A stretch of DNA of 64,000 nucleotides from Marsupella aquatica (lineage: Eukaryota; Plantae; Marchantiophyta), in the NCBI GenBank assembly GCA_973895155.1, contig OZ316891.1, forward strand, positions 5,799,708-5,863,707. Direction: 5' to 3'. The translations under genes and the position numbers were made by a program. Below, in pieces: positions 15,310 to 39,649 of the stretch (position 1 is its first letter; each line of letters begins with the position of its first letter). The notes under the pieces are model-generated. The model was given only the letters and a program-made list of their open reading frames with translations. It was not told where the DNA came from and did not search any database.

Positions 15310-15372
15310 AATCCAGGTGAGACTTTCAAGTCAGTCAGATTTTGCTACCCATCCCTGCATTTCTTTTACTGA

Positions 15373-16429: not shown

Positions 16430-17330
16430 AAACAGGACTCTCAACCCTGGTCTCACTAAAAACAGGTAGTGGATTCTGTGGAGGTTCTTGTAGCTTGCAT
16501 CCGAGCTTTCAATTTCCTGGCCTCTTCCAACTTCCATTGTCGGACATAATCAAGGAGCTTTGGTTCCATGTTGTCTGTAGGCAATGTAAGCAACTTCATC
16601 AACGAATTATTTTGCAACTATGTCTTCACCCGATCTCAATTCACAACTGCCATCTCCCGTTGGGCATTTGTACTAACCTTCATTGCTTCTTGTTCAACCT
16701 TCATTCGCTTGTGATCTTCCTTGGCTCTCTTCTTTCCTTGAGGCCTCTTCCTTGTGTCACAATCTTCGACAGGTTCTTGGTGCTGCCTATCAACACTTTC
16801 ATTGTCACCATTCTCAATGACAATTGGACTCAAGCTAGAATGTTCATTCTTGATGGTGTCGGACCTAGACGATGTTGATTTCCTGCCCTTCCCTTTAGAC
16901 ATATCGTCTATTGGATTCCCCCACCGCGGACAATCTTTCAAAATCCAGAAGTAGGAATCAAAAGAAAATGTTTTCCCTTTGGGATGGTTCTGTTTGTATA
17001 ATTCCTTTGCCTTCAATGTTGTCGATGTTGGTCCCCAAAATTTGAAGGTCTCCTACCTGTTGAAAACATCCGATGAATTTTGACACATCATGTTTAATAT
17101 CAGACCACTCCCCTTCCAGTGATTTTTGGGCCCTCAACTAAACTCCTTCAATTTGTGCTTCTCGTACTGCTCGGTCACCCGGTCCCAAAATCTCTTAGCC
17201 CTCTACCTTGCACCAATGCAAGGATCTTGGGACACATGGAGAACACTGTAGCACAATTGTTTAAACTCTTCTGCACCATACTTTTTTCCCACGACTTGCT
17301 GTCATCTTCTCACATCTTTCAGCTTTGTAA
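16430..17330 (-). pseudogene. Pong/Harbinger Myb/SANT DNA-binding protein (ORF1), disrupted
   Basis: YGAEEFKQLCYSVLHVSQDPCIGAR*RAKRFWDRV, FSFDSYFWILKDCPRW and KRPQGKKRAKE are typical Pong ORF1 / NAM-associated motifs. End points are approximate. Confidence 0.8.
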
Positions 17331-18889: not shown

Positions 18890-19215
18890 CGCATTCTCAC
18901 ATTAACATCTTTATCTGACCATGACATGTTTTTCTCACCCTCTATATCTTTTCTTTGCTCCCCGCTTTGCTCCACAGATCTACTCCTCGAGATCTTTTCT
19001 CACCTGGCTTGACATGTTTTCTTCACCTCCATATCTTACTTTTTCCTTCTTGTCATCTTCATCTCACCTTGACATCTTTATCTCACAACCACATCTTCTC
19101 CTCGCCCTCAACATCTTTTTTCACTTTGATATTTTTTTCATTTATACATTTTTTCCCACCTTTTCATTTCTCTGCTCAACATATTTTTTTCACTTTGATT
19201 TCTTTTCCTCAACTA
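18890..19215. repeat. Inverted copy of the AAGATGTCAAGGTGAGAA degenerate minisatellite
   Basis: Repeated tctcacc(t)ttgacatcttt units are the reverse complement of those at 7300-7790. Confidence 0.6.
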
Positions 19216-20744
19216 AATTATTTTTGTGGGCATGGGTTATTGTGAGATGGCCACGTACCCCCACCCTCTAAAGAAAGAATTTGATTAATTAACAAAGAAA
19301 GGTGGATATGTCTCACTTCTCCAGTAATAAAAGTTCTTCTCCAAAAGGCCTATTACCCGATATCACTATGCACAGACTAGAGTTTCCACAAGATGCACAT
19401 TACAGGGTGACAACAGGGGGTCAGATGCTCTTATTGCCAATACACGTTGTGAGCTCACTTTTACTCTGACGCTAAGAATCTTCTTGATCATATTTTACTA
19501 TGTTATTTTACAGCCATTAGATCTCCCCTAGATTTGGCTCATGTGGTTTTGAGGGCTAGGTGTGAAACTCGCATTCAAAGACCATAAGCTGAGCAAAAGT
19601 TCAGCTAAAAGTGTCCAGTACTTTTTAGTCAGATGGAATTGTCACTTTTGCCACCAAAGGAAGAGGGGAATACTTTTTCCTGATGTGGAATTTCGCTAAC
19701 TTTCGCCACCAAAAACAAGGGAGGAATAGTTTTTACCGAGGTGTAATTTAGCGAACTTTCGCCACTAGCTTGGGATTCTGTACTGTTTTGACATTTTTAG
19801 TTTTTTGGCGATGGACATGATTAATACGCACGAGGAGCAGTAGAAAGTAGCAATTATGACAAAGCGAAGCCTTCAGGAATTCGGTACTTGGGATTGGAAG
19901 GTATTTATTTTAGAGTTGAATGGAAACCGTACTCTTGTACTGAAATATAGTGTACTAACTACAATGGCGAAATCTGCACAAGGGTACTGAGGTACTGAAC
20001 CCGTAGTGTCCTTGGAGGTACAGAACCAGTCCCGGGAGGGGAGGTCGGTACCGGCCCGTTCCTCTGGCACGGCCCTCCAATCCGTCAGCGACGGCAGAGC
20101 CAGTCTTTCCGCCGACGCTCCACGCCCACTGACTGTGCAGTCTCGTCGCAATTAAAAATGCAAAAGGAATCCACGGCCAGATCTTCCCGGAAAAGGGGTC
20201 ACACGACCTCCGCCGTGAGATACTGTGTCGATGGAGCCCTCCCCAGATGCACCGTCGATCACGACGGTGGCAACGCTACTGTAGGACGGGTCTCTCACTT
20301 TTGTCGGTCCACCTTTCAAGACTGCGAATTTATATTTAGCGCAAAAGTTAATTTAATGTTACAACAGATATCACAATATCACATCTAGCACTCCAGTAGT
20401 TTTAAAAAAACTTTAAATCGTCTCATTCACTCAAGGAATAGTCAAGGTGATATTTGCCAAATTAGGAAATAAAAGGACAAACCGTCGATATTACATTGAA
20501 TGCTCCCGTAAGACGTACTCTCACGCTTGTCCGTCCACCTTTGAGATTGCAGCTTAATAATGAGGGGTATTTTGGTAGCAAAAATTCACCAACTTCCACC
20601 TTGTTCAAAAGGAATGTGCAGTTTTGGCAAAACATTCATTTTTTTCCCTTTTATTAGCCAGTTTCTCACCTAACAACACACCCATTGACCAGAAGAGAAT
20701 CTCAAGGAGTCAAGGTAATCATCAAATCTGGGGAGATCTAACTA

Positions 20745-21049
20745 ATTCACTGCGATCGCCAGTATCGATGCACATTAATGCATCGGTCTTGAGGGCTTAC
20801 AGTAAAGCAAGGCGTTTACAGGGTCGCAGTCGTTTGTGACCGTCTGCCGATTGATTCGGGCAGCATGACCTTTGCGTTGGGTGGGTTGGGGGAGGCAGCC
20901 CCATCCTGGCTGTCCCTATTCTTCTTCCCTGCCACCGGACCCGGGCCCACTATCGCCTCACCGGCCAAGCCTTTGTGTGCTGGCCCGTCAAACCCCGTCC
21001 CCCCGTCCCCCCGCCGACTTTGTATACACATAGGACGCTATGTGCTACG
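20745..21049 (+). repeat. Left TIR of the MULE
   Basis: Reverse complement of 37055-37374, with about 7 substitutions and one 15-bp indel by eye. Confidence 0.95.
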
Positions 21050-21306
21050 CATAGAGACATGACTTTGCTGTGTATATACGGATTCAAATGTAAATACCTT
21101 TTTGAGCCGGATGGGATTGGCAGAATGAGATAAACGTGTGTTCTGCACAAATTCATTGAGGGAATGGGAATGTTCGTGTTCATTCCCTGCCACACCGTGC
21201 GATTCAGGAATGGAATGGAATGTTCTCATTTAGGAGTTCGTGATTCATGTGTGCCACAATTCGTGTGCTGTAAGGCAGTTCTCATCTTTGGTGTAATCTC
21301 GGTGTC

Positions 21307-24300
21307 ATGTCTACGGCATGTGTGGCTGAACTTGCACACTTGGATTCGACATGCAATGCTGCAAATTCTCCCCACATGTCCAACATTAGCACGTTCAAGG
21401 ATGGGCCGATGTTTCCGCAAAAGCACACTCTAGATGAAGCAGTACCTCAACCACCTGAAGTGCTGGCGACTATAGCGATAGGGGATGTAGCACAGGCCTT
21501 GGATGGCATTGAACAGCATGTGCTTCACCTGACATTCGATGATGATCGAGTGCTTCAGTTAGAGGACAGGCCACAGCAAACTCCATTGATACGTAGAAGC
21601 CACAGTGACTATTCCAGATGCGACATAGTTCAGACACCTCCTCCCGGAGAATTTGAATACACTAGTTTGGAGAGGTTTGGATCGAAGAAGGATTATGCTT
21701 GGATTCCAGAGGGTAGGCTGCTGGATTTTATATAGGGATAGAATATGCGCGAGAATTTCCATACTGAGTTCACCACTCGACACATGGTACAAAACAGAAT
21801 CCACAAGACCGGCCCTTTGGTAAAGACCACAACATTGTTTTGTTGCTGCTTTGGTCCGGAAGATTACAAAGGGTGGAAATCCAGCAAAGTGCCTGAGATA
21901 TCTGAAATCTAAAGACACAGGTGTCTTTTTGAAGAGAAAAACCATAACAGGTGATCCAGTGATTTTACTGTTCTGCAATTACTTCATTGTACTCCTGTTT
22001 TGCGTCAATTTTTATACTTGAATGCCTCGGTTAATGCTTGGCTTCTTGCGCATGTTCTCCACTCTGAATTGTGTGTGCACCATGTCTTCTCTGTAGGAAT
22101 GTTTGTACGTCGCGGTTGCAAATGTTCTTTTACTTCCACAAAATACGAGGATCGGCCAGGGGTTGTACTGATAAAATGGATCCGCAAAGATCATTTGGAT
22201 ACGCAAAATCTGGTTTTTCATGGCCTGCACGATTCGACTGCCTTCGAAGCAAATGCACACATTGCCCCTAGAATTTCCCTAAAGCTACGCACCAAAATCG
22301 AGCGATATCTTAGGGCAGGGTTGACAGCAAGAGCAATTGGTGATGCCCACTTTGAAGAGATTTTTACGAGATGGCGTAAAGACCACCCGGATGAGGATGC
22401 CGATGTAATCATGTCCAGGGACATGCAGCTTACTCCACGAGATGTGCAAACTGTGAGGGATTCAATGCGAAGGCGACAACCAGACTATTGTTGTGACGAA
22501 GCGCAAGCTACAAAATTGTGGGTCCTTCAAAATGCAGACCACGTGATCTTATATCAACCGCAGATAACATCTAAAAACCAGCCTTTCATTTTATTCTGGG
22601 CATCTCCTTGGCAGCAAAAGAAGCTATCGCTTCTTGGTCATGATGGACTTGTAGCATTTGATGCAACGTTCGGTACCAACCACTTTGGAGTAAGCTATGC
22701 ATTCACTATACCTTGTTTGCCAATCCATTTACATGTGTGTTGCCATTAATTTAGAATTCACGGTCACTGTTCCACATTTTTTTACTGAGTTTTGTACTGT
22801 ATATATATACCACTGACAGCACTTTTAATTCTTGTTTTCTTTATCATTGGCAGTTCCCTTTCTACACAGTTGTTGTGTATGACAAACTCCAAAACGCCAT
22901 TCCCGTAGCATAATTTGCTCTCCTGCAAATGTACAAAGCCCTACAAGTTAGCCAAGTCCTCACAGCTTTGAAAGACTGCGTGAATGCCAAGAGGACAGAA
23001 TTGAATTTGCAAGTTCCGTGGACACCTACCTCTTGGATTATTGATGTAGCGGACGAGGAACAAGCAGCAATCAGGTTTACTACATATCATGTCATTTTCA
23101 TACCACTGCAGTCTTTCATATTAAATGCATGCCCTGAATAAATTATTTATATTCATTCACTCCTGTCATGCAATTTAATGTGTTTTCTGTACCTGTAGAC
23201 AGGTTTTCCCAAAAGTGCCTATCACATTTTGCACTTGGCACGTTCGTAGAGCCTGGACCAAAAACATTATCTCCAAGGTTTTCTGCCCCTTTGCCAAAGC
23301 CCAGATCAATGCGGATCTGGGAGCTCTCATGTATTCTCATGCAAGCCTGGATGGAAGTGGTGAGAACTCTGCGTGTGCTTGTAATGTGTTGGCTGTCTGC
23401 TTGTATTATGTTCGACCTGTGCTTGTAATGTGTTGGTTTCAGCACAATAGTTTGACATGGATTTATTTAGATTTCCAAATGCTAATATTGTATACATTAC
23501 TTTGCAGACATGATTGAACAGTCCCAAGCTTTTATAGATCAATGGCTACTTACCCAACCAGTATTTGCTGCATATTACAAACGGGAGTGGCATAATAAGG
23601 TTTGCAATTGGGCAATACAGTTCAGAGGGTACAATCATGCAAACCAGAATACAAATGGGGGCATCGAACGCTGGCACCACACCCTAAAAATGGAGTTGAA
23701 GGCGGGTAGGTATAGCATTATGGGATGGTCCATTCCTTGGCTACTTGGTCGACTGAGAGTTTTGGAGAATCACTACTGGTGTATTGCTGCTGACAAATTT
23801 CAGGGGCGAATCAAAAACAAGACGATAGAAGGGCTTGTGCATAAGTCCCTGAATAGAGCAAAGTCAATCCCAGATGATTACGTCCAAACATTTCAGTGGG
23901 GTCTGGCCAATTGTGCATGTGTTAAAAGCACTTCTTCAAACAACCCAAGCAGCAAGGAACATCTTGTCACTAATTGGGACAAAGATAGTTGTCAATGCAC
24001 ATGTGGGTATTCACTTCAAGGGAATGCATGCAAACATCAGGTAATTTTGAATTCACTTCCTGCTTCAAAACTGCTTTGCAAATCATCCGATTAGACTAAA
24101 CAGCTTCCTCATTCAAATTTGCGACACCTCTCAACCGGTTTCCATTCACGTGCAGATAAAAGTTCTTTTGCTTACAAAGAAGATGACAGAGTTGGAAGTC
24201 CTTCATCAACTCGGAACAAAAATGGGATTATATTCTGGTGGTCTTGACCAGCATTTCAAATGGATGCATGGGGATTGCCCAGAATTACCGACTTATGTAG

Positions 24301-25160
24301 GGAATATCAATCTCACGTACCCGGATGAGGATATGTGGGAACAGCCAACAGATGACACGAGCCAGTTTATGGTGCCTTCTCCACCCGTGGAGGAGTTTCA
24401 AGCTATAGTCACCACATGTTACAATCAAATTGCACATCACCCAACTCTTGCCAAACAAGGTCTCGTTGAGCTGAAGCATTGGATGGAGTCTCTCTTCACC
24501 AGAGAGGCCCAACAAAATGTCGCAAGGCTGGACATACAGTCTGGTCATGAAGCACTCACTCCCGCTGAAGGGAGTGATAGGACTACAGTTGGCAAACGCG
24601 GCTGGGTAGACAAACTCATGGGTGTGAAGGGTAGACGCAAGCGCAAGGGGAAAGTTGCCATAGACTCCAACAAAGAGAACGTGGATCCGTATCCTCCGGG
24701 TGACCCATAGAATTTGGTGAGCGGAGCAGATGCACCTGAGAGATTGCGCGTGACAAAAAAGGATAAGGCATTATCATTCCAAGCCAAATTTGACAAGGAA
24801 TCTGTAGACGCCCTTGCGGACATGTGTCGTGCCATCACAGACCACACTGGTACCAGGGCACAGGGAGAATGTATAAAGCCCTTTGCGTCAAAGCCAACAC
24901 GGAGGACCAAGAACCGAGCAGCTCCACCATTTCCGCTTAGCAACGTCATCAATCAGGCATCGAAATCACGTGTACTCAAAGCGCCTCTGACCCAGGCAAG
25001 TATGGACGTCATTGGAAATGTTCAAATTGGCTCCAGCCAAACGTGGGCTATGTCGCCCAACTTTCCAGACATTTTACGTGCCTTCTCCACAGGATGCGCA
25101 AGTGACATCAATGCAACGACTACTGTAGAAGAGAATATAGTGTCCATTGCAGATGAATAG
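21307..25160 (+). pseudogene. MULE transposase with C-terminal SWIM zinc finger, multi-exon, with nonsense mutations
   Basis: CCFGPEDY, RRGCKCSF, first Asp in GLVAFDATFGTN (~22660), second Asp in WIIDVADEE (~23043), CTWH (~23230), Glu in TNGGIERWH (~23665), SWIM CQCTCG..GNACKH (~23990-24035). GT-AG introns; in-frame stops at 21733, 21739, 21910, 22911 and 24708. Confidence 0.88.
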
Positions 25161-25838
25161 TTGTAGTACATTGAATATATGAACAAAGTGGCCGACGTTG
25201 GCCCCAGTATATATTATCATTCGAGTATTTGGACTTGAATCTCCGTTCATGGAGAAGATTAAAAGGGTTTGTGTATGGAAAAGAAGGTGTAACGAATGGC
25301 AAAGACACGGGTGTAACGAATGCCAGTCAGATACATGCATGGTAGTAGTTCAACAATGTTACACAAGTTCCACCGAATGAATGTAGTGTCGAAGAGTACT
25401 TGTACTGAGATGACATTATGAAGAGAGCCATGGAAGATACATTTCCCCAAAAAGGGCAAGGAATCATACCACACATTCCATTCGGGCTTCCATGGAAGCT
25501 GAACTGCATACACATGTTTAGAGGGCTGAAGACAAAACTTTTATATATTTATCCAAGGTGGGTAGGCTCACAAAAGTGAAATAATTGGAGGACTATGCCT
25601 ACGTCCTTACAATCCTTTCAGCGCCTTGTACAAAAATGCGTGAGGATTGGCCTCCCAACTCAAAATGCTAGTCTTCAAAATGCCAAGCACTACACGACAT
25701 AAAGGTCCTTATATATATGTAGTCTTTGTAACTGTGAATATGAAAATAGGGCTGGCCTACCACGAAAATCGGACGCTGAAGTCATGTTATTTCATGTATC
25801 CCCTAACATTGTGTAACCACTGTTCATATCCTAGCAGC

Positions 25839-28624
25839 CTACACAATATCATCATCATCGGAACCAGATCCAGAAGGAGCATCACTGACAGACGCACTTG
25901 GGGTATTCAAATTTGCCACAACTTTCTGTAGCTCTGCGGTTTGAGAGGACAAGAAAGTAATTTTGTCCATGATCTCCGTCAATGGTGTGGACCTCCTATA
26001 CGTCTGTGAGAATTGTTGGGAGGCAAGGATTGCTTCCGTTTGACTGGGGGAAAAAGTGCCTTCACTTGGAACATCGTTTGAATCGTCCACATGAACTGCA
26101 ATGACTGGATCTGTTTCGGGCTCCATTGGCGGATGTAGTGTATTACCTTTGGGTTCCGCCATGGCAAGTGGAACATGTATACTAGCATGGCGTGATGGAC
26201 TTCCTGCATTGGATGAGGAGGCCTTCAACAACGGATCCACATTATTTGTTGCAGGGGGGGCCTCTGGGAATGCATCATGTGATGCAAAGTTGTTGGTGAC
26301 CCAGGTAACATTAATCTGGTGCTCCTTGGCAAGCATCTCGCGTGCCAAATCTGGAAACAACTCAGCGGCATCTGAATCCAGACAACGAGCTTCATCCTTC
26401 CGTTCAGCGTCTGACTCCTCAATGGGCTCCTCATTTGAGGTGTCAGTCCACTCCGCCTCCTCTTCAACCTAGAGGACAATCGCCAATATCACACATGAAA
26501 GACATTGAAATTGAAGAGGGTTGTGTTTCATCAAATTACAATACAACGAACGTCGTGGTAATGCATGACCGAATGATGTTAACTGTAGTGGCACTGCAGG
26601 ATGGAATTACCTTCTTCATTGCAACATCATGAGTACTTGAGTTGAGCTTCTTATACATGGCCACGATGTTGGGTATGTAAGTCTGAACCGCCTTGGGCTT
26701 ATGATGTGCCTTCCAAACCGCATACTCCTTCTCGCCCATAGTCTGATAACGTGGCCAACCATGCTCCTCTTCCCATAGTAGACTCTGATGCTTTGTACGC
26801 ATCCAGTTGAGGGCATTGTGACACAACTCTGTCCGATGCAGTGCCATGGCATCATGGATTTCAACAGACTCAATTGATGCATCAACTGGTTCAAAGAAAT
26901 TCCTCACAACTGTTGCACTTCGGATGAGTCTTCCACTTTGAAACTCATCTAATTCTGCAAATGCACTGTCTTGAATATCAGACAAAGCTCTGCTGGTCCA
27001 CCCAAATACATACGACAAATTTGGGCATTGCAAAACCAAGGCCTGCAACCGAGCCCAGTCACGGTCATTGGTGAGACTGTCCCACACGTGGAAGTGAAGT
27101 TTGGGCATCATAAACTGAAAGAAAATTAAGAACATGTTTTGAGATGGAACTGTTGGTGGCGGGTTCTGTAAACGGTTTTGTTCAAACCGGGTTACAAACT
27201 TGCTCTGAGTCGTTGCTCTGAAAAATAGACATACCCACAGACATGCATATATAGTAAGCCATAGTGCATGGTGAGATCGATGTTGCATTCGGAAACATTA
27301 ATTGCTTTTCAATAACACAGTCACCCTGGTGACTAAAGCCTTCAACATAGACACATACTTCACCCTTCTTTTGGCCATGCTCCAATGTTGTCTCAATGTC
27401 CCTCTTACGTTGTAGTAATTGGGCGAGCATTCAGCCCCTGGCTGCTTCCGGCGTGCAACATTCCTTGCCTCACGTTGTTGCTGTGCAACAACGTTTATGG
27501 TATACAATGATCGAGGGGTCCCTTCACTAATGAGACCATGCTTCTTGAAAACATGGCAACCGTATGTGCGAAGGTTCCTGAAAGGCACCATCTTACAAGG
27601 CAACGTCTTGCACACAGCGCCACTAAAGTATCGAGAGAAATGAACCCCCTCTTTAGCCTTGCATATGACTGTTGATTCCTGTTCACAAGGGTAAGACATA
27701 AATCGTGAATGCCACTACACAGTTGCAATTGTAGAAAGGCATGTAAATAATTGATAATTGGCGTACAACAAAAGAAATGTGGATCCTTCTTACAAATTTG
27801 CATTTGGCACATGCTTCGGCCCTTCCTACACATTCACAAACATCTGAAGGGCTATGGTCCAAACTCCCCGTTGGAGACAACGTGTTTGTCGATACACGGC
27901 AGCCACTACGGGTCCCTCTCTTGGGGGCTGGATCAGAGTCCTCCACGTCAATGTTGATTGCGTCTGTGTCTATATTCACCTGTGCTTTGCCTTTTGTTCC
28001 GAGAAACCGGCCTGGGTGTTCATTATACTAAACCCCAACCTTAGCTTGTCGTGGAGTGAACCTGATGGATGGAACAAGGTTCTCCAACCGAACATTACAT
28101 TTCCTTTTCTTTCCAGTTGTGCTTGGCACAGGTTTTGATGGGGCAGTTACTATGACTGCAGTGACCTCGTTGCAGGCAGGTGGCGGTGAGTGAGGCAACA
28201 ACGGGGAAGGTGGTGCCGGTAGAGCTAGCACCGGAGTGAGCAAAGGATGCCCTTGCGAGTGAACGGAGGGCAATTGAGTTTGGCCATTCGGGGCAGGTGC
28301 TGGTGTCAGCGTTGGGGGCAGCACTGGCACGTTTGCCTCCGAGAATGGCACGTTTGCCTCCAACAATGGAATGGCTACCTCCGACAATGGACCACCGGGC
28401 AGACTTGGTTCCACATGTAGTACAGTGGGCGAATGATGGAGATTGTCCCACATAGCAAGCCTCTTCTTGGAGGCCTGAAATGAAAACCCAATGAGTGAGT
28501 GACATGGTGTACATGTCAAAAGTAACTTAAATTAAATTAAGGAGTTGGAAGGCAATCAGTTTAAGTAAATTAACCTAATCAGGTTTCAGTGATTCGTAAG
28601 TACCTTACTCTTGGTTCGCGCCAT
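25839..28624 (-). pseudogene. MULE accessory gene, ~764 aa, H3-like N-terminus MARTKSKASKKR, one nonsense codon
   Basis: Exons 28624-28604, 28474-27794, 27714-27359, 27217-26611 and 26468-25839 join at GT-AG sites in consistent phase (2295 nt). One internal TAG at 28028-28030. Confidence 0.7.
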
Positions 28625-29163
28625 ACTGTCTCTTCACACCTGCAATATAAATGAATACTGAACATCAATCATAGGCTGCAATTTAGCTATGGCTATATTC
28701 GAATACTCAGTAATGAATTACTAATCACATAAGAGGATCATTTGTTTCATTCATTCACTTGTAGCGTACGTACCATTTTATTCGTTTGATATCCATTCAG
28801 TGAAACAATCATTGCAATACATATTACACATGGCGCCTGAATGAACGACACCGCAAAAGCAAAGGATCGACAATGCCAATCATTGGGACTTCAAAATTTC
28901 CAGAATGCACGACGAGTGCAGTCAGATGTATCCCTGTACTTCATTATATATTGCAAGTAAGAGTGCAAAGTACACGGCAGAACACTTTGAAAAGTAAGAA
29001 TGCAGAGTAAGCACAATACAACACTTTGAATACAAAAAGTTTCCTTGCTTCGTCATACATAGTGAATGTAGCGTTTTCCTGTATTGCAACAAGGTGCAAC
29101 ACAGAACAATAGTTACACAAAGTACTTGCAAAGCTAAATTGGCTACGGTCAACTGTCCACTGT

Positions 29164-30066
29164 CTATTTGTTACGCCCAGAGTAGACATCCAATGAGGCG
29201 CTGAAAACTTCTGCTAGACGTCGAACAATGGAAGACATGGAAGTGCCCTCCTGGATGTCTTCGTCGGCATGGACATGTTCTTCACCCTGGAGCACATCCA
29301 ATATTGGAACTCCACTTGATGTACCTGTTGTGCAAGAGCCCTGCGATTGAATTATTGGTGACTGGGCTGGATTTGCGGATGGTGTATTGCACATAGGGGC
29401 GGGGGACGATAGTACAACAGCAGACGGGGCTGGACTGACATTCGATTGGGTTGAAATATATGGGCTACCACCCTCACCGGAAGCGCGTAGCCATGGCGAC
29501 AGCTGAGGATGTTGGGATCCTTGTCGCCGCTGGGTTCGCGTCTGTGTTCATAAACGTGGCTGCGGTAACTGAGTGTTTGTTGAAACAACCTCCAACTCGA
29601 CAATAGATAGAATTCTGCGATTAATCCGGAATCTCACATTGCAGAGTGGCGCATGCTTCAGAGAATCATGTATCACTTGGAACTGATCGATTGCCTCCAT
29701 ACAAGCTAATGCACTTGCAGAGAGTCCTACTAAATCCCTCGTGGCATCCCAAATGGCAGCTCTCAAAGAGGACTGATGGGCAGTACATTGCACCGTAGCA
29801 TCGGTCATCAACACCTCAAAACGATAGAATTCACTATAAAGTCCATTCTGCAAGGCATCATGCTCGCAATGAGTGCCTCTAGGGCCTTCGATTGAAACCT
29901 TGCACATGCCTCGATGGATACCCTGTGTATAGCCTCGATACAGAAATTTCTTTGGGAAAGGATTACTAGCAATGAAATTGAATACCACAACAGTACATGG
30001 TCCAATAAACCCCGTCTCCTCTCTCATGACGGCATTCTGCACATAGACCAGAGTTGGTATCGACAT
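29164..30066 (-). pseudogene. MULE accessory gene: RPA70 C-terminal-like OB-fold followed by an S/P-rich tail, ~300 aa, one nonsense codon
   Basis: FLYRGY...CKVSIEG...CEH...YRFEVLMTDAT...LRAAIWDATRDLVGLSASAL matches the Rep_fac-A_C pattern (Y.l.v.i.D.T...f...ae.l.G.sa). ORFs 29548-30066 and 29164-29394 share a frame, separated only by TGA at 29548-29550. Confidence 0.65.
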
Positions 30067-30356
30067 TGATATTGCCTTACCAAAATGGAGTTACTCTGCT
30101 TCTTGTTGAACGTATGGGATTGAGAACAGACTTTGCTTAACTTAAGCTCTCTACAAAAAATGCAGAGCAATGCGTAAGCCTATGCGCAAAAGCATCTAAG
30201 AAAAAGGAATTCATCGAAGGTCAACCTAAATGTTCCATTCAAACAATGCAACATTTACCGAAAATGGTGCTGAATCCACGCTCTGCACATGCGCCTCGCA
30301 TCGGAATGTCGACTGCCAATGTGTAGAATGGCAGGGTATGCAATAGGTCAGGAAAG

Positions 30357-30830
30357 TGTTGAGCATAGACGATGATCGCAACGGCAAGCCCATGAACCAT
30401 CCAACGCACAATAGTCGACACAAGAGATACGTGGTTCACCTCCTTGAGGCTACGTCCACGGGAACACACAAGAGAGCTTTACTGAACTCTAAGCCCGTCG
30501 ACTATACCGAGTCTCCACAGTGTAAGCTCTCCCTATCTCTCAAGTGGCTCCATAACAATGAGCCTTGGTTCTACCTCTCCAAGCACACATGCCTCTTATG
30601 ATATAGTGTGCAACTTAGTTGTACCTAACCACATAGTTGTACCTAATCACGTAGTTGTACCTAACCACATAGTTGTACCTAATCACGTAGTTGTACCTAA
30701 TCACGTAGTTGTACCTAACCACATAGTTGTACCTAATCACGTAGTTGTATCTAACCACGTAGTTGTACCAACCACGTTGTTGTACCAACCACGTCATACC
30801 TAACCTAGACGTAAGAGTAAATACCCAACA
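30357..30830 (-). repeat. 3' LTR of the copia element
   Basis: Matches 36483-36956 except A30669 vs G36795. Confidence 0.97.
30616..30793. repeat. 18-bp tandem array inside the LTR (also at 36742-36919)
   Basis: tagttgtacctaa(c/t)cac(a/g) x8 followed by two 17-bp variants. Confidence 0.95.
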
Positions 30831-30845
30831 ATCTTCCCCTTGACT
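30831..30845 (-). promoter_or_regulatory. Polypurine tract
   Basis: Minus strand AGTCAAGGGGAAGAT lies immediately before the 3' LTR. Confidence 0.85.
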
Positions 30846-31020
30846 CTGGTCTAGGGGAGAGTAATACTGCCAATGTATATGATCCCTCAGCGGGAAGTTC
30901 TGGACAGAACCAAACCGGTTTCCCTCTCTAACTAGAGCAAACCAGAACTAAGCCGTAGCCTAATACATAGGAATGAGGAAGAGCATATATCAGTAATTAC
31001 AATGAATGTTTAAGAAAACT

Positions 31021-34000
31021 CTACTTGTGATGCAATTGCAAAACCTGCAATACGTCACGGTGTCTAGAGAAACTCTCCAAAGGAATCACTTTGGTAAATG
31101 CGTCAGCCGGGTTGAGTTTACCATCAATCTTGACTAGCTCAAACAAATTATCAGACACAGCCTGCCTGATAAAATGGTACCTGACGTCAATGTGCTTCAC
31201 TCTGCTGTCCATCACCTGGTTCACAGCAAGGTGGAGCGCACTTTGACTATCACAATGGAGCTTCACATTCCCCTGTGGCAATCCCATTTCAGTGATAAGT
31301 CTATCCAACCAAATCGCTTCCTTTGTTGCTTCCGCAGCTGCAACATACTCCGCTTCTGTAGTAGACTGAGCAATACACTTCTGCAAAGTAGACCTCCAAC
31401 TTATGCATCCACCGCCAAGTGTGAACACGTATCCTGTTGTTGATCTCCTTCGGTCCAAATCTTGTCCATAGTCAGAATCTACATAGCCAATCAATGATCT
31501 AGCATTCTTTGCATTCGCATCAAATAAAAGACCATGATCCACGGTACCCTTCAAGTACCTGATAATCCACTTCACTGCTTCCCAGTGTACCTTCCCTGGA
31601 TTCGACATGTACCTGCTCACCTTGCCCATAGCCATGGCAAGATCAGGTCTAGTGCAAGTCATCAAATACATGAGACTCCCCACTGCCTTGTCATATGGAA
31701 CCTTTGACATCAACCCCTTCTCTGTGTCATCCGTAGGACAGAACGCTGATGATAACTTGAAGTGTGGAGCCAACGGGGTACTTACTGGCTTGCTATTCTC
31801 CATGTTGAACCTTGCAATTACCTTCCTCGCATAACTGCTCTGCGTCAACCATAGCTTGCCAGCCTCCAAGTCCCTAGTGATCTTCATACCCAAAATCCTC
31901 TTAGCTGGCCCTAAGTCCTTCATCTTAAACTCTGCACTAAGCAGTGCCTTGAGCTTAACAATCTCAGACCTATCCTTGGCTGCAATTAGCATGTCATCCA
32001 CATAAAGTACTAAAACAATGAACCCAAAGACAACATTCTTCACCGGTTTCAAATACACACAAGGGTCAAATACACTTCTGTGAAAACCTTGTGACCGAAT
32101 CCAATCGTCAAACCGCTTGTTCCACTGTCTTGGTGACTGCTTCAACCCATACAAGGATTTCAGCAATCTGCAAACCAATTCCTCCTGTCCTCTCTTCACA
32201 AAACCTAGCGGTTGTCTCATGAAGATCACCTCTTCCAATGTGCCATAGAGGAAAGCTGTGACAACATCCATCTGATCTAGGAGCAGACCAAACATTACAA
32301 CAAGTACACACAATAGTCGTATTGTAGAGTACTTAGCAACTGGTGAGAAGACCTCATTGTAATCCACACCTTTCTCTTGTGTGAATCCCTTTGCTACCAA
32401 TCTAGCCTTGTAGACCTTCGATCCACCTCCTATGGAATTATCCTTCAGCTTGTAAATCCACTTGTTGTCCACCACTTGCTGATCCTTAGGCAGCTTAACA
32501 AGCTCCCAAGTTTTGTTGTCCTTTAGTGACTGCATCTCCGTTTGCATTGCTGCAGTCCACTTCTGCTTCTCCTTTGAAGCACTTGCCTCATGAAATGAAG
32601 AAGGTTCTCCTTCTTCCAAAATTAACGCATCACCCTCATCATCAGCTGTAAAATCATCCTCTTGCAGTTGAGATGAATCAACCCACTGTCCATACCTTGA
32701 TGGAGCGCGTACAGTGCGACCAGATGTTCTTCTAGCCGATGACTCCGGTTGATCTGCGTGTGCTGGTACAATTTGAAGCTCAACAGCATCCACTTGCTGC
32801 TCACCAGCATCAACAAACTCCTCTGGTTCCTCTGGCACAGGAACCAGCTCCATAATTGGAGCAACTCCTTCTCTCCGGTCATGCACCTCATAACCAATCT
32901 CCCCCTCAACGAGATCCGGGATAGGAGATTTTCCTTTGTCAGTACGGGAGACCTGAGTATTCTCCCCCTCCTTCAATAATCTGGATTCATTGAAGGAAAC
33001 ATCCCTACTGACAACGAGCTTACAGGCAATAGGATCCCATAGCCTATAGGCTTTCACACCACTCTGGTACCCAAGAAAAACACATTTCCTGGAGGTAGGA
33101 TCCAACTTGGTCCTATTCTGCTTTGGTGTGAGAGCATATGCATCACTTCCAAAAATTACCAAGCCATGATAGTCTGCTTGCCGCTTATAGCGCATCTCAA
33201 ACGGCGTTTTGAAATTGATAGCACTAGAAGGAGAAAGATTTACCAAATAAGCTGCGGTATTGACAGCTTCTGCCCAAAATTCTTGTGGTAAACCTGATTG
33301 GCTCAACATACTCCGTGACCGCTCCAACAGTGTCCGATTGAGCCTCTCAGCGACACCATTCTGCTGCGGAGTATAAACTGTGGTGAGATGGCGAGTTATC
33401 CCCTGTTCTGAACAGTACTCTTCAAATTCCATTGAAGTGTACTCCCCGCCGTTGTCTGACCTCAGACTCTTCACCCTTGTATCCAAACACTTGATCGTGT
33501 TTCCAGTCTGATTCTCCACCTGGGCCTTCCACTTCTTAAAAATGGACAAGACATCAGACTTATGCGTCATGAAATAAATCCACACAAATCTTGAGTAATC
33601 ATCAATAAATGATACATAGTACAACTTTCCAGAGTGTGAGGGAGTCGGGGATGGACCCCACACGTCACTATGTATGTACTCAAGAACCGCTTTGGAACGA
33701 TGAGTTCCAACACCAAAAGCACGACGATGCTGCTTTCCAAGAATGCAATGCTCACAAAACTCTAATTTACAAGATTGCAAATCAGAAATGAGTCCATTCT
33801 TCCGTAAGATAGCCAAACCCTTCTCACTCATGTGGCCTAGCCGTGAATGCCACAGTTGAGTCATCTCCTCGTGAGACTTGGTTACATTGGCCTCTCCACA
33901 TACAGTATTGCCCTATAACACATACAAATTCTTTTGTCTACTCCCCTTCAAAATCACTGTCTCTCCCGACCTGACTTGAAGTTCACCATCAATAACGCTC

Positions 34001-34293
34001 CATTGATGACCATTTGAATCCAACACACCGAGTGAAATCAGATTCTTATGCATGCCAGGTACATACCTGACTCCGGACACTGTGCGCACAGCGCCATCAA
34101 ACATTTGAATCTTCACAGACCCAATTCCCTCAATTTGACAGGAGTGATCATTTCCCATCAGAACTGAACCGTTTGAAATAGAGTAAGAACTGAAAAACTC
34201 ACGAATGTAACAAATATGAGAAGAGCAAGCACAATCAAGAATCCACACATCATCTGCTCTCCTAGATGACGTGCACAGGGCATACCCCCGGCT
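31021..34293 (-). CDS. Copia pol (protease, GAG-pre-integrase, integrase, RT, RNase H), one internal TAG at 33913-33915
   Basis: WILDCACSSH (protease), LWHSRLGH and CEHC, IHSDVWG / LRSDNGGEY / QNGVAER (integrase), KARLVAKG, QMDVVTAFL, LYVDDML (RT), YVDSDY, TEAEY, KHIDVRYHF (RNase H). ORFs 33913-34248 and 31021-33864 are in the same frame. Confidence 0.93.
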
Positions 34294-35328
34294 TCATAAA
34301 ACATACTCATCATTGAGTAAATCAGCTTCTCCATCAGCCCTAGCCACATTTGCCGATGAAGTTTCCGCTGCCTTTCCCTTACAGTCTCGCTTGAAGTGTC
34401 CAACTTGGTTGCACTTCCAACATGTCACCTGCCTCCTCTGAGGGGATTTACCCTTGGACTTAGATCTGGATTTAGATCTAAACTGGGTTCTACGGTCCCC
34501 AGTTGGTCGCTGCATACTCCTCCCACGGTTAACATTGAGGGCAGCACCAGATGATGAAGGCTGTGACGTGATGTGCATCTTCTGCTGAAGATCATCACTA
34601 AGCAGAGAACTTACCACGTCATTGTATGAAATGGTATCCCTATCACGATGCAACAACACTCGTGATAGGGACTGGTAAGATGGAGGCAATGAACTAAGAA
34701 GCTGCAGAGCCTTCGTCTCATCATTCAAAGTCTCCCCAAGGTTTTCCAAGTCAACGACCATGTCGTTGAAAGCATCCACATGGTCTTGCAACTTCGTACC
34801 AGATTCCTTCATCCTGAAACTCATCAGTTTGTAGGAAGTGTAGAGCCGGTTCGACAACTCCTTGCGGTGATACTTGCTCTGCAATTCCGCAAATAAGGAC
34901 ATGCAATCCTTATGTGCACCCAACTGCTTGATGATGGGAGGCATGAGATAGAGTGTAACACACCACACTCCCTGCTCCTGCATGCGGTCCCATTGTTTCT
35001 CATCAACATCGTCTTCACGAGGGCTCAGCAGTTGGCCCATCCCTGACGCATAAAGCACTCCCTTCACCTGCTTCTCCCATAGCAAGTAGTCAGAGCGCCC
35101 ATCATACTTTGTCACTTCATACTTGGGTCCCCCAAGCTTGAAAGTCCCCATCTTCTTCTTTACCGTGAGCTCCGGTAGTAGTACTGCTTCCTCCACCACA
35201 CGCCGCACCGGTGATGGTATCGGTGTCACGTGCTCTTCCTCCTGCTCCTCTCTCTGCCCCTGAAACCTCCGCGGTGACCCTCGTGCTTCAAGTTCCACGT
35301 CTTCGAAAAACTCCTCCGAATCACTCAT
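34294..35328 (-). CDS. Copia gag
   Basis: KYDGRSDYLLWEKQV, LLSSLPPSY and the CCHC knuckle CWKCNQVGHFKRDC; ends in a TGA in frame with pol. Confidence 0.93.
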   Translation of the reverse strand: MSDSEEFFEDVELEARGSPRRFQGQREEQEEEHVTPIPSPVRRVVEEAVLLPELTVKKKMGTFKLGGPKYEVTKYDGRSDYLLWEKQVKGVLYASGMGQLLSPREDDVDEKQWDRMQEQGVWCVTLYLMPPIIKQLGAHKDCMSLFAELQSKYHRKELSNRLYTSYKLMSFRMKESGTKLQDHVDAFNDMVVDLENLGETLNDETKALQLLSSLPPSYQSLSRVLLHRDRDTISYNDVVSSLLSDDLQQKMHITSQPSSSGAALNVNRGRSMQRPTGDRRTQFRSKSRSKSKGKSPQRRQVTCWKCNQVGHFKRDCKGKAAETSSANVARADGEADLLNDEYVL

Positions 35329-36468
35329 ATGAGAAAGTCACAAAAAATGTTGTTTTTCACAACTTCTCAAAAAACTCGAAACTCAACACCGCCGCGTAGC
35401 CCACAAAGCTAGGAGTCCAATACTGAAAACCGAAATCAAAATCAAAATTTGACGGAAAAGTTATTCAAATTTCGGTCGAGGTGGGTAAAACCTTGGGAAA
35501 CTCCCCCGTTTTGACCACCTCAGGGAATAACCGAAATACCAAGTACAACCCGTTGTCGGAATTGCGATGTGATTGGTGCGCTGCATTGCCAACTTCAATG
35601 GCTACGACCTCGCCGAAAAATAACCAAAAAAGTTACCGTTCGGCGGATGAAATCTTTGTCGGACGGTCAAAAAATAGCTCTCTGGTTTTTTGGAATATTC
35701 TATGACCCTTGTACAGGCCCTGTGGGAATTTTGGAAGAACAATCGAGGGGCTGACATGTGTCCTCGAACCCCCAAAACCCCCTACCACCCTTCGTCGTCG
35801 AAATCTGGTCGCGCGCGCAGAAAATACACACGGCAGAATGTACCCCTCGACACCAAACGCAAGATATCTCACTCGGGTTTTGACTAAATCAAGATCCGAT
35901 TTCAGATTTGGAAACTAGACTCCGAGGCGATGAAGATCGATATAAGAAGCACCCAAAACAAGGAAAGAACGAGGGAGAAAAAAATTGGTAAAGATGACAG
36001 ATTTCTCTCAATTGCCATAGCCAATTTCGAATCAGTTTTTCAAAGAGAAAAAAATGGTACCTTGTCAACAACGAATGTTGATCAATTGCACTTGGTGCCG
36101 TCACCAAGTCCAACAAGGTAATTGATTTTGCTTAGCCTTCCTCTTTGCATCAAAGAGCCAATCCCGGACTCAAAAACAATCGTCTTGCCTCAATCTCTCC
36201 GTTGAGTCAAAACACTTGACGCTTCTCCCTCCGAGTCGATTGCCAACTTTCTTCACAAAATCCAGAACGACGAAAACTTAGATCTCTCTGCACCACGAGC
36301 TCCGTTCAACGATTTCTTCACACCGTTAGAAAGCTCTTGCCCTGATCTATCCGTTGAGCCCATAAACTCCAAGTTCCATGCGATGGAACTCTGGAAAATC
36401 CACCAACACTCAACGCTGGAAAAACCGTCATGAAATCCCGTCACGAACACACGTCACCTCCCAAGCAT

Positions 36469-36480
36469 GCTCTGATACCA
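36469..36480 (-). promoter_or_regulatory. Primer binding site, initiator tRNA-Met
   Basis: Minus strand TGGTATCAGAGC lies 2 nt inside the 5' LTR. Confidence 0.95.
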
Positions 36481-36482
36481 AT

Positions 36483-36956
36483 TGTTGAGCATAGACGATG
36501 ATCGCAACGGCAAGCCCATGAACCATCCAACGCACAATAGTCGACACAAGAGATACGTGGTTCACCTCCTTGAGGCTACGTCCACGGGAACACACAAGAG
36601 AGCTTTACTGAACTCTAAGCCCGTCGACTATACCGAGTCTCCACAGTGTAAGCTCTCCCTATCTCTCAAGTGGCTCCATAACAATGAGCCTTGGTTCTAC
36701 CTCTCCAAGCACACATGCCTCTTATGATATAGTGTGCAACTTAGTTGTACCTAACCACATAGTTGTACCTAATCACGTAGTTGTACCTAACCACGTAGTT
36801 GTACCTAATCACGTAGTTGTACCTAATCACGTAGTTGTACCTAACCACATAGTTGTACCTAATCACGTAGTTGTATCTAACCACGTAGTTGTACCAACCA
36901 CGTTGTTGTACCAACCACGTCATACCTAACCTAGACGTAAGAGTAAATACCCAACA
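36483..36956 (-). repeat. 5' LTR of the copia element
   Basis: 474-bp direct repeat of 30357-30830. Confidence 0.97.
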
Positions 36957-37054
36957 GAAAGTGCGCCTAGCGGGAATGAGTACATTCAGCCAATGGGACT
37001 GAATGGGCTACCCTACACGCAAAGACCCACAAAATTGTTTGCATACAGCATACA

Positions 37055-37374
37055 CGTAGCACATAGCGTCCTATGTGTATACAAAGTCGACGGGGGGACG
37101 GGGGGACGGGGTTTAGGGGGACGGGGTTTGACGGGCCGGCACACAAAGGCTTGGCCGGTGAGGCGATAGTGGGCCCGGGTCCGGTGGCAGGGAAGAAGAA
37201 TAGGGACAGCCCGGATGGGGCTGCCTCCCCCAACCCACCCAACGCAAAGGTCATGCTGCCCGAATCAATCAGCAGACGGTCACAAACGACTGCAACCCTG
37301 TAAACGCCTTGCCTTACTGTAAGCCCTCAAGACCGATGCATTAATGTGCATCGATACTGGCGATCGCCGTGAAT
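37055..37374 (-). repeat. Right TIR of the MULE
   Basis: Inverted copy of 20745-21049 with an extra 15-bp local duplication in the G-rich part. Confidence 0.95.
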
Positions 37375-39649
37375 TCTAACTACCGTAGTCATTAATTAAT
37401 CTATGAACATTAGGTACAGAAGATTTAGCATCATTCTTTTAATCTTTTCCTTCTCAAGATGACATTCTCCACCCTGGTTGCTTGCTAGGTTGAAGATGCT
37501 CTCACCCACCAGGCAACTAAGCAAAGTTAACTGGAGCCAGTTCTTTTGCTAGGTTTGATGAGTGCTTCAGTCCATTTGTGTTAGTTTTGGTTCTTCTTTC
37601 CCTGTTTTTAGAGGTTCCTCATTGGTCACTCCTTTTGCATTTTTGTTCACTTTGGAATTCTTTTGTTTATTCTTTTGTACTCAGTCTGGCCCTTTCTGTA
37701 AAAAGTTTGTAACATCTATTTTCTGTTCCAAACTAGTTTATGCATACACACAACATGTGCAAAAGCCATGGAGCCAATTGAAACCAGTTTCACTGGTTAC
37801 AGGGTCCATATTTTATCTAAGTTTGAACAAAACCAAGGCTGGCCAGGTTTTAGGGCAAGGACCTCTCATGAAACTAAAAAGAACAAAAAGGAAAAGGGTG
37901 TTAGAACTCTACCCTATGGCTGCCCTAGTGCTACTTATTTAGAACCTCCAAAGATCTTTTATTATTAGCCCATGCTGGAACGAATTGCAAGCACTGTCCG
38001 TAAATGTCATTGGGGGGTCCCAAAGCTTCACTGTGGTCTCAACGCTTCACCCTATAAAAGTTAATTAAGGTCAAATTGTTCGTGACCATCTAACTTTTGG
38101 TATGAGCTCAGACCTTTTTGTAAACTCAAAGTGATGATTGTGCCCTTTTTCATTGTAGGGACAGAAAGTTGTACTACTTATGTGTAGCTAAGGTGCTTTG
38201 CGGATGGCATCATTTTCGTCAGATATTTCAGAAAACTGGCACGAAAAGGCTCACAACGACCTTGCGTATAGGTCTATTGAAAAAGTATTTAAATATATTT
38301 TTTCCTAAAGTGTGTAGCTTGCTTATAGCCATAGCTCACGGTAATTGTTTATGCCTAAAAGTTAATGATCATAAATTTGAGATTTCATAACTAACCCATA
38401 ATTTGTAGTTAAGTAGAAGAATTGAGTCTTTGAGATGCCCTAATTGAGTTCCCAACAGGTCAATCCTTTATGTTAACTAACTTAAATTTTAGAGCTAAAA
38501 AATTAAAAATTAAAAAAAAACTTAAATTTTAGAGCTATAAGCCAATCCTCATGGCAAATGTATTGCTCAGATGGGATTTCCAAGCTCATATTGATCTTGA
38601 AAAACATGTTTTTTTAACTAGGGTGCCATGGATGGACTTGCATAAAAAGAGAATCTTGAAAACAGTCATCTGAGTTAAAAGGGTTGGGAGATCCCATGTA
38701 TTACTGATCCAGGTGTATGACATTTGCAATCAAATTAGAAGGCCTAGTTTACTTCCTCAGTGCTAAAGAGAGAACAAACGTTCCCAATAGATTTCTGCTC
38801 AAACTGACCAATGAGACAGACCTTCCTTGAGACTGTCCATTCCAAGCTCACAATGGACAGTCTCCTTCCTTGAGGTCATTACATTAGTGTAGATGTGGAC
38901 CATTGGTCCATCACACAATGGCAGTGGTCAATATTTTCCCATTTTTATCTTTTTCCTTTTTCTCGTTTTTTGGGGTTTACCTTTGCCCTCTTGTTTTGAG
39001 TTTGGTGCTTGTCAGTTTTCTTTTTCTAAAATTTGTGAAACCCCATGGACACGGAGGCAATAGAAGCCAGCTTTGAACCCAAGATCTATGAGTCCCTACT
39101 CAAGTGAGCTAACAGACAGCCATGCCTGCTTTGGCATGGTGTTTGTCAGCTTTGCACCTCTTAAATTTTTTCTTCATTGTACTTTGTTTGGCCCTTTTGT
39201 AAATAAACTTAGAATGTAACTTTCATGCTCTTTTGACAATTATGCAATGTTGGGTTTCTTATTGTTATTATTTACGGACCCCCACTAGGGGTCTCTTGCA
39301 AATTCTCTGCCATGAGGTTGTGCCACATCACCACAACTAGCCACAAACAGGAATGATCATACTTTTAACAATAACAAACATGCACATTCCTGTTTGTGGC
39401 AAAAGCAAAGTAATTTTTGGGACGCCATGCCGTAAATATTAAACGTAAAAAAACCAAAATACAAATGAAAAGATGTCATTTAGTAAAACAAAGTTACCAT
39501 TTTGATGTTTGTCAAAGATATATCAGTGTTTTATATCAAAATGCTCATATTTTTTAATTGTTTGCAAATTTGAAAAAAACAATCGATAGAAATGTACATA
39601 GTTAAGACCCCTTTGGCTTCACATTGTAAAACTAAATAATAAATCTCCT

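What the first reader, a model, noticed from the sequence alone, without database searches (positions are those of the whole stretch)
20737..37382. Three-gene MULE: SWIM transposase plus two opposite-strand accessory genes within long TIRs
Seen: an intact-ended element (305-bp TIRs, TCTAACTA duplication) with the transposase reading inward from the left TIR and two genes (OB-fold, then MARTK protein) reading inward from the right TIR, converging at ~25160-25839. Established: MuDR has mudrA/mudrB transcribed convergently from its TIRs; VANDAL has three genes; other MULEs carry ULP proteases. Inference: the pairing of an ssDNA-binding-type OB-fold with an H3-tail-like protein is not one I recognise. 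Both accessory genes look complete (one nonsense codon each, introns intact) rather than Pack-MULE fragments, which suggests a dedicated accessory module of an undescribed family.
Basis: partly seen in the sequence, partly recalled or inferred. Interest (0 to 1): 0.8.

Follow-up and report, generated by a model that had tools for sequence, protein, structure and literature searches.

The report
Mutator transposon with RPA-like passenger gene
A broken copy of a multi-copy Mutator-type jumping gene, likely from a liverwort, carries two extra genes of its own: one predicted to fold like the single-stranded-DNA-binding protein RPA, which may help the element copy itself, and one unknown protein whose first residues resemble the tip of histone H3.

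Summary
The anatomy is real: a 16,630-bp element (20745-37374) with 305/320-bp TIRs, an 8-bp TSD and three genes. The OB gene is confirmed: its model (pLDDT 93.5) matches RPA70 DBD-C (Z 13, 10-17% identity). It belongs to an unnamed family with a CCCH zinc site. All 10 species-named clusters among 30 looked up are from the liverwort Calypogeia fissa, with paralogs 24-59% identical, so it is not a recent RPA1 capture. In 4 of 4 runs laid, diverged copies cover all three genes; some join the two accessory genes or lack the copia. Gene 3 (701 aa, modelled) found no relative. Its H3 likeness is only 6 of 9 tip residues, and listed substitutions show no selection. Best reading: an old MULE family with a dedicated accessory module, the OB protein likely aiding gap repair and gene 3 possibly countering silencing. 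RPA cargo is described for Helitrons; my searches found none for MULEs. New variant of a known kind.

The parts
20737..20744 (.). Left target-site duplication, TCTAACTA
20745..21049 (+). Left TIR, 305 bp
21307..25160 (+). Gene 1: MULE-type DDE transposase with SWIM finger, about 1,050 aa, 6 modelled exons (21307-21950, 22097-22689, 22854-23074, 23199-23359, 23508-24040, 24156-25160). Broken: stops at 21733, 21739, 22911, 24708 and a frameshift near 21870
   Evidence: Motifs DATFGTN, IIDVADEE, CTWH, GIERWH and SWIM located; Pfam SWIM E 0.0075, below its curated cut-off; Atlas neighbours FAR1, ALS2CR8, ZSWIM RNaseH-like, MULE. Exons are my model; no RNA data
25161..25838 (.). 678-bp gap between the convergent stop codons
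25839..28624 (-). Gene 3: unknown protein, 701 aa as modelled (exons 28624-28604, 28474-27794, 27678-27409, 27114-26611, 26468-25839). Basic MARTKSK-ASKKR tip, Pro-rich linker, Cys-rich stretch, Trp/His-rich core, acidic tail. One stop at 28028-28030. The third intron (294 bp) may hide a further small exon
   Evidence: no relative
28604..28624 (-). 21-bp first coding exon, MARTKSK, after an in-frame stop and a predicted 5' UTR intron (28773-28640)
   Evidence: aligned islands in diverged copies at about 28592 onward and 28636-28657 (joints with sides of 30 and 22 letters)
29164..30066 (-). Gene 2: single-exon, 300 aa. RPA70 DBD-C-like zinc-OB domain (residues 1-165), Ser/Thr/Pro-rich linker, conserved C-terminal helix-like motif. 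One stop at 29548-29550; first zinc Cys lost
30352..36961 (-). Nested Ty1/copia LTR retrotransposon (30357-36956; 474-bp LTRs with 1 mismatch; TSD GAAAG at 30352-30356 and 36957-36961), inserted upstream of gene 2's start codon. Not part of the MULE family
   Evidence: empty site in other copies (X4 loose end at 30342)
37055..37374 (-). Right TIR, 320 bp
37375..37382 (.). Right target-site duplication, TCTAACTA

Best explanation
This is a decayed copy of a multi-copy Mutator-type transposon, likely from a liverwort, that carries a transposase and two likely dedicated accessory genes: a predicted RPA70-like protein that likely binds single-stranded DNA and would help repair the gap left by excision, and an unknown protein that possibly acts on chromatin. 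Shown: TIRs, TSD, three reading frames, other diverged copies of all three genes, and an old, conserved protein family for the OB gene. Predicted: the RPA70 DBD-C fold. Inferred: the transposase cuts at the TIRs; the OB protein coats the single strands at the donor gap or at forks, so the gap is refilled from the sister chromatid and copy number rises. That route matters in a haploid-dominant plant, which has no homologue to copy from. I put about 0.4 on that particular role. Gene 3 is inferred to be a nuclear factor in the part played by VANC or MURB; I put about 0.2 on its H3-like tip being a working histone mimic.
For: Fold: model from 45 sequences, pLDDT 93.5; Foldseek best hit human RPA trimer core, E 8e-6; VIA Z 13.1, 13.0, 13.0 to RPA70 DBD-C and 12.7 to Teb1 OB-C, rmsd 3.0-3.6 over 138-142 residues, 10-17% identity; profile hit to yeast RPA1, E 0.0026. 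Family: 44 relatives at E up to 0.001; three Cys, His, Phe and Asp kept in 90% or more of 33 rows at 22-58% identity to the first; 15 C. fissa proteins on 12 contigs, ten of them 24-59% identical to each other and spread over several branches, as expected for mobile cargo. The C-terminal motif beyond the stop is conserved and in frame (17 of 33 identical). Other copies: in 4 of 4 runs, contigs 80-99% alike cover all three genes; up to 12 contigs differ at one gene 3 site, 7 at one OB site and 15 at one transposase site; the stops at 21733 and 21739 are sense codons in them. Gene 2-gene 3 joins in other contigs: 28061 to 29636 (X1, X3; side 38), 28411 to 29268 (X3, X4; side 27-31), and 28500-28636-28657-29160 (X1, X2; side 22). 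Empty copia site leading on towards the right TIR. Five of 6 countable length changes in gene 3 exon 2 keep the frame. MuDR precedent: convergent mudrA/mudrB, gap repair from the sister chromatid, deletion derivatives (10.1101/2020.01.09.900282, passages).
Against: No function was tested and a shared fold shows none. Gene 3 has no detected relative and 9 of 35 listed substitutions are synonymous against 27% expected if neutral; 0 of 4 in the OB gene. These rows are the tool's best-supported 40 of 3,071 and 40 of 377, and 28 of the 35 lie in or next to the Pro-rich linker. Some other copies have frameshifts in the OB gene (net -5 and +4). No listed contig of another copy joins the transposase to gene 3, and the bin 25409-26009 has the lowest cover inside the element. 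Whether the C. fissa OB genes sit in MULEs is unknown; they might ride other transposons. Whether other copies lack the stops at 28030 and 29550 is not among the listed rows.
Confidence: 0.68

Rival explanations
1. The OB protein is a decoy or adaptor, not a DNA-coating protein: as a lone copy of RPA's trimerisation domain it engages host RPA32/RPA14 or telomere-type partners and brings the transposase to replication forks or dampens the damage response.
For: The best matches are exactly the trimer-core and OB-C domains; it has a single OB fold where RPA70 has several (recalled); most full-length relatives end in a helix-like segment after a low-complexity linker (read by eye).
Against: The C-terminal segment lies about 110 residues after the OB domain, whereas RPA70's trimer helix follows the domain directly (recalled); identity to RPA70 is only 10-17%.
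Confidence: 0.15
2. The two extra genes are hitch-hikers: picked up long ago from another transposon (for instance a Helitron, which carries RPA) or from the host, copied along in this family and of no use to it.
For: Helitrons of plants carry RPA (PMC6431247, passage); MULEs capture DNA (PMC6446971, passages); listed substitutions in both genes look neutral; some copies have frameshifts or internal deletions there; no link to MULEs in other species was shown.
Against: Both genes are whole, with one stop each against four stops and a frameshift in the transposase; they persist in copies 10-20% diverged; length changes in gene 3 mostly keep the frame; no Helitron gene or hairpin was noticed in the element.
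Confidence: 0.14
3. Recent Pack-MULE-type capture of ordinary host genes into this one copy.
For: Long TIRs around non-transposase genes are the Pack-MULE pattern.
Against: The element has its own transposase gene; both genes occur in many diverged contigs; the nearest relative of the OB gene is 45% identical and only 3 of 45 family members touch Pfam Rep_fac-A_C, weakly.
Confidence: 0.03

Closest known systems
Maize MuDR (mudrA/mudrB)
   Same: Long TIRs; transposase and helper gene face each other from opposite TIRs; deletion derivatives (10.1101/2020.01.09.900282, passages).
   Different: Two opposite-strand genes, not one; 8-bp TSD; one is an RPA70-like OB fold; the transposase exon tested lies nearer to oomycete, fungal and animal FAR1/ALS2CR8-type clusters than to seed-plant ones in the Atlas listing. 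MURB itself was not compared.
Arabidopsis VANDAL21/Hiun (VANA, VANB, VANC)
   Same: Three-gene MULE with SWIM transposase and accessory genes; VANC is an anti-silencing factor (PMC5735166, passages).
   Different: No PMD/MAIN-type or protease domain hit in Pfam; VANDAL has 9-bp TSDs and 46-174-bp TIRs (PMC6446971 Table 1, passage); VANC is dicot-specific (PMC13547354, section 10).
Helitron-borne RPA
   Same: A transposon carrying its own RPA-like ssDNA-binding protein (PMC6431247, passage).
   Different: Helitrons roll-circle with RepHel and have no TIRs or TSD (recalled); here it is a DDE cut-and-paste element with a single DBD-C-like domain.
RPA70 DBD-C / Teb1 OB-C / POT1 C-terminal OB
   Same: Predicted fold, Z 12.7-13.1 for RPA70 and Teb1, 9.3 for POT1C, with a zinc insertion.
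   Different: 10-17% identity; CCCH zinc site in place of four Cys (recalled); stands alone, with a low-complexity linker and a distal helix.
Histone-tail mimics (influenza NS1, SARS-CoV-2 ORF8)
   Same: A short H3-like motif on a non-histone protein (PMC13165374, passage).
   Different: Those were tested; here only 6 of 9 tip residues match, the match depends on a predicted splice, and the tip could be just a nuclear localisation signal.

Membership tests
MULE (Mutator) superfamily | DDE transposase with the C/D-x-x-H motif | tested here: met
   Motifs located in the spliced model (motif meaning recalled); Atlas neighbours FAR1, ZSWIM RNaseH-like, MULE at 0.86-0.95. Pfam MULE itself did not hit the separate exons.
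MULE (Mutator) superfamily | Long TIRs (hundreds of bp) | tested here: met
   305/320 bp, 7 mismatches
MULE (Mutator) superfamily | TSD of 8-11 bp (PMC6446971) | tested here: met
   8 bp, perfect
MULE (Mutator) superfamily | Zinc finger after the catalytic domain (often SWIM) | tested here: met
   PF04434 E 0.0075, 16.2 bits, under the 19.6 cut-off; CxC...CKH present
Maize MuDR clade | MURB homologue; place in the transposase tree | not tested
   No MURB or MURA sequence was at hand; no transposase relative was retrieved
Maize MuDR clade | Convergent transcription from the two TIRs | not testable with these tools
   Layout fits; no RNA holder listed
VANDAL | VANC/PMD-type accessory gene | tested here: not met
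   No Pfam hit at E up to 0.05 for any exon of genes 2 and 3 scanned; a very distant fold likeness of gene 3 is not excluded, as it was not folded
VANDAL | 9-bp TSD, TIR 46-174 bp | tested here: not met
   8 bp and 305 bp (PMC6446971 Table 1)
Pack-MULE | No transposase; fragments of host genes | tested here: not met
   Full-length transposase remnant and whole genes
Helitron | RepHel gene, no TIR or TSD | tested here: not met
   No Rep or helicase hit among the frames scanned; TIR and TSD present
RPA70 (RPA1) | DBD-C-type zinc-OB fold | tested here: met
RPA70 (RPA1) | Further OB domains (DBD-A, -B, -F) and four-Cys zinc site | tested here: not met
   300-aa protein with one OB; none of 55 relatives fetched exceeds 383 aa; CCCH pattern in 32 of 44, four-Cys pattern in 0 of 44
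RPA70 (RPA1) | Binds ssDNA; forms a trimer with RPA32 and RPA14 | not testable with these tools
   Needs biochemistry; host RPA subunits were not available
Histone H3 | Histone-fold domain | tested here: not met
   No Pfam or PDB sequence hit for gene 3 exons
H3-tail mimic | Tip conserved across the family and bound or modified by H3 readers or writers | tested here: inconclusive
   Diverged contigs align over the exon but their letters there are not listed; binding untested

The most novel reading that the evidence does not exclude
An old liverwort MULE lineage has built a two-part toolkit: a stand-alone RPA70-derived zinc-OB protein that steers the excision gap into sister-chromatid repair, turning cut-and-paste into copy gain in a haploid plant, and a chromatin protein whose free ARTK tip, with lysines in the K4 and K9 register, decoys histone readers or writers to keep the element unsilenced.
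Probability: 0.15. Interest if true: 0.8.

Novelty: new variant of a known kind. Interest (0 to 1): 0.52.

Why it matters
What MULE helper genes do is an old question: MURB's role is still described as unknown (PMC6446971, passage), and VANC is the one worked-out case, limited to dicots (PMC13547354). Here one helper has a readable fold. An RPA-like passenger gives a direct test of whether a cut-and-paste element promotes its own gap repair, and it sits in a plant group that the MULE survey never names (0 mentions of moss, liverwort, Marchantia, RPA). It also names an unannotated, expanded family of zinc-OB proteins now filed as 'unnamed protein product'. If the H3-like tip works as a mimic, it would be a plant transposon using histone mimicry.

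Tried and rejected
No whole genome is held, so no genome-wide TIR search, consensus or dN/dS. Word-index protein searches found nothing for gene 3 exon 4 (309 candidates), the OB domain (59) or the transposase (49); weak negatives, since full HMMER found 44 OB relatives. Both folding jobs went to the OB domain (single sequence pLDDT 45.7; alignment 93.5), so gene 3 was not folded. Atlas on gene 3 exon 4: best 0.90 to an unnamed cluster, recognition 1756, LRR hits 0.81-0.83 treated as chance. PDB sequence searches of gene 3 exons 3 and 4: 0 hits. Loci searches: 0 confirmed of 249 and of 18 pattern matches in metagenome contigs, none in viral contigs. No RNA holder listed. Self-pair prediction for a full-length OB relative: no answer, score 0.00. 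Substitution tally: uninformative because of the tool's row selection (transposase rows corrected give 5 synonymous of 14, the row at the frameshift left out). Tree: 41 of 45 rows, four under 95 residues dropped, no RPA70 outgroup, so no origin can be read. Earlier findings: nothing by sequence, place or MULE/RPA words. Paper searches with no paper holding all terms; listings only, none on this by title or abstract start. Considered from memory and dropped: Zisupton/KDZ (also SWIM and 8-bp TSD), because TIR length and motifs fit MULE; a ParB-like or SET-associated reading of gene 3, for lack of any hit.
Full report
Observation. The element runs from 20745 to 37374 between two perfect copies of TCTAACTA. 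Its TIRs are 305 and 320 bp with 7 mismatches and a 15-bp indel; the TIR end occurs exactly twice in the window, 0.01 expected. It sits upstream of gene 2's start codon, so the MULE proper is about 10.0 kb. No whole genome was available. All exon models below are mine, from splice signals and frames; no RNA holder was listed.

Gene 1. Six modelled exons give about 1,050 aa with the motifs DATFGTN, IIDVADEE, CTWH, GIERWH and a SWIM finger (their meaning as the MULE DDE and CxxH signature is recalled). Pfam gave only SWIM, E 0.0075, under its cut-off. The Atlas placed exon 2 among unnamed oomycete and fungal clusters (0.95) and FAR1, ALS2CR8, ZSWIM RNaseH-like and MULE clusters (0.86-0.94). With long TIRs and an 8-bp TSD, inside the 8-11 bp given for MULEs (PMC6446971, passages), it is a MULE. 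This copy is dead: four stops and one frameshift. Three searches for transposase relatives found none, so its clade is not fixed.

Gene 2. One exon, 300 aa, one stop after the folded domain. Full HMMER found 44 relatives at E up to 0.001, the best 45% identical. Of 30 looked up, 10 clusters carry a species name, all 'unnamed protein product' of the liverwort Calypogeia fissa (15 proteins on 12 contigs); one is a JGI 'hypothetical protein', 19 are unnamed. The host is therefore inferred to be a liverwort. The model from the 45-row alignment has pLDDT 93.5. Foldseek ranks the human RPA trimer core first (E 8e-6); VIA gives Z 13.0-13.1 to RPA70 DBD-C, 12.7 to Teb1 OB-C, rmsd 3.0-3.6 over 138-142 residues, 10-17% identity; the profile hits yeast RPA1 at E 0.0026. 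Only 3 of 45 members touch Pfam Rep_fac-A_C, best E 0.016. The family keeps a CCCH zinc site (pattern in 32 of 44, four-Cys pattern in 0 of 44; all four ligands at 90% or more in 33 rows). This copy has Tyr for the first Cys. Its C-terminal motif beyond the stop matches a C. fissa relative (17 of 33). Ten C. fissa paralogs are 24-59% identical and fall on several branches; the window's protein groups with four of them, support 89/89, unstarred (41 of 45 rows, no outgroup). An old, dispersed, diversified family under protein-level constraint is what mobile cargo looks like; it is not a fresh capture of RPA1. Where those paralogs sit in their genome I could not see.

Gene 3. Five modelled exons, four GT-AG phase-0 introns, 701 aa, one stop against about 34 in shuffles. 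It has a basic tip, a Pro-rich linker, a stretch with 9 Cys in 110 residues, a Trp/His-rich core and an acidic tail. Nothing matched in Pfam, the word-index search, the PDB or, convincingly, the Atlas; it was neither folded nor run through full HMMER. After Met, residues 1-4, 7 and 9 match the H3 tail as I recall it, so both lysines are in the K4 and K9 register, but 7 and 9 depend on the predicted first splice, and the tip could be only a nuclear localisation signal. Earlier AI notes report H3-like tips on passenger genes of other transposons or repeat-rich DNA; these are unchecked leads.

Other copies. Five runs were listed, four hold the stretch, from two studies; one may be the window's source. 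Laid at 80% likeness, contigs of diverged copies cover all three genes in 4 of 4 runs. In X3 the window's own contigs have depth 28-38 and the summed depth over 21202-30216 is 213-727, except 84 in bin 25409-26009; the tool warns that this is no copy number. Up to 13 and 15 contigs read sense codons at the stops 21733 and 21739; up to 12 differ at a gene 3 site and 7 at an OB site. On 27960-30352, contigs join gene 3 to gene 2 in three ways: 28061 to 29636 (X1, X3; side 38), 28411 to 29268 (X3, X4; side 27-31), and a diverged contig, matched by equal depth, through 28500, 28636-28657 and 29160 (X1, X2; side 22, under the tool's 30-letter caution). The first two look like internal deletions, which MuDR is known to make by interrupted gap repair (10.1101/2020.01.09.900282, passages). 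A loose end of 3 contigs in X4 at 30342 runs on into sequence matching 36973-36980, the empty copia site. Five of six countable length changes in gene 3 exon 2 keep the frame (-12, -21, -18, -3, +3; exception -38); two others were not countable.

Results against. Of listed substitutions, 9 of 35 in gene 3 and 0 of 4 in gene 2 are synonymous, against 27-28% expected if neutral; the rows are the best-supported 40 of 3,071 and 40 of 377, lean to this copy's own decay and to the linker, and are no dN/dS test. Other copies show frameshifts in gene 2 (net -5, +4). No listed contig of another copy joins gene 1 to gene 3. The two accessory stops are not among the listed rows.

Mechanism. Shown: a mobile family with three genes. 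Predicted: an RPA70 DBD-C fold. Inferred: the transposase excises the element; the OB protein binds the single strands at the gap or fork and favours refilling from the sister chromatid, the route proposed for MuDR replication, and the only template in a haploid gametophyte (established biology). Rivals: a decoy or adaptor for host RPA; idle hitch-hikers from another element; recent capture. Gene 3 most likely is a nuclear helper in the role of VANC or MURB, by position and make-up only.

Comparison and novelty. MuDR has one convergent helper; VANDAL has three genes, VANC derived from MAIN and limited to dicots (PMC13547354, section 10 and passages; PMC5735166, passages). RPA cargo is described for Helitrons (PMC6431247, passages). 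The MULE survey's table passages that I saw list SWIM, PMD, FAR1, SET and OTU, and its main text has 0 mentions of RPA, moss, liverwort or Marchantia; the Arabidopsis TE-protein atlas has 0 for OB-fold or RPA. Ten searches were run; none listed this gene content. For 10.64898/2026.08.24.746577 I saw only abstract and outline; for PMC13165374 passages. I opened no supplements; those of the two surveys, Repbase and Dfam may hold such an element. Verdict: a new variant of a known kind, interest 0.52.

Noticed in passing
window 30357-36956 (-): Young copia LTR retrotransposon: LTRs differ at 1 of 474 bases, tRNA-Met-type primer site, 18-bp tandem array of 10 units in each LTR, two in-frame stops splitting gag-pol; summed contig depth hundreds of times that of the MULE, so a very abundant family.
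   Followed up: partly
window 28061-29636 and 28411-29268: Contigs in two runs each skip these stretches: probable internal-deletion derivatives of the MULE family.
   Followed up: partly
window 27408-27115 (-): Gene 3's third intron is 294 bp, about twice the others, in frame with one stop, and has a second acceptor near 27218 that other copies read closer to consensus; an extra exon is possible.
   Followed up: partly
window 13904-17052: PIF/Harbinger-like remnant: Plant_tran nuclease pieces on + and a NAM-associated domain on -.
   Followed up: no
window 7301-7737 and 18894-19226: Degenerate inverted arrays of short repeats about 11.4 kb apart, enclosing the Harbinger-like remnant; may be the subterminal repeats of a larger old element.
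   Followed up: no
window 2545-3138 (+): AhpC/TSA redoxin-family reading frame without introns (Pfam E 7e-12).
   Followed up: no
window 54522-59708 (+): Long host-like frames with a hydrophobic start and repeated W-x-D-H-G motifs; no Pfam hit for the two pieces scanned.
   Followed up: no
window 12088-13127, 1257-1388, 46729-46812, 63772-64000: Tandem repeats with units of about 300, 44, 44 and 47-49 bp.
   Followed up: no
proteins P0001-P0055: The zinc-OB family itself is unannotated, with deep sub-branches and mostly a helix-like C-terminal segment after a Ser/Thr/Pro-rich linker; it may ride more than one kind of transposon.
   Followed up: partly
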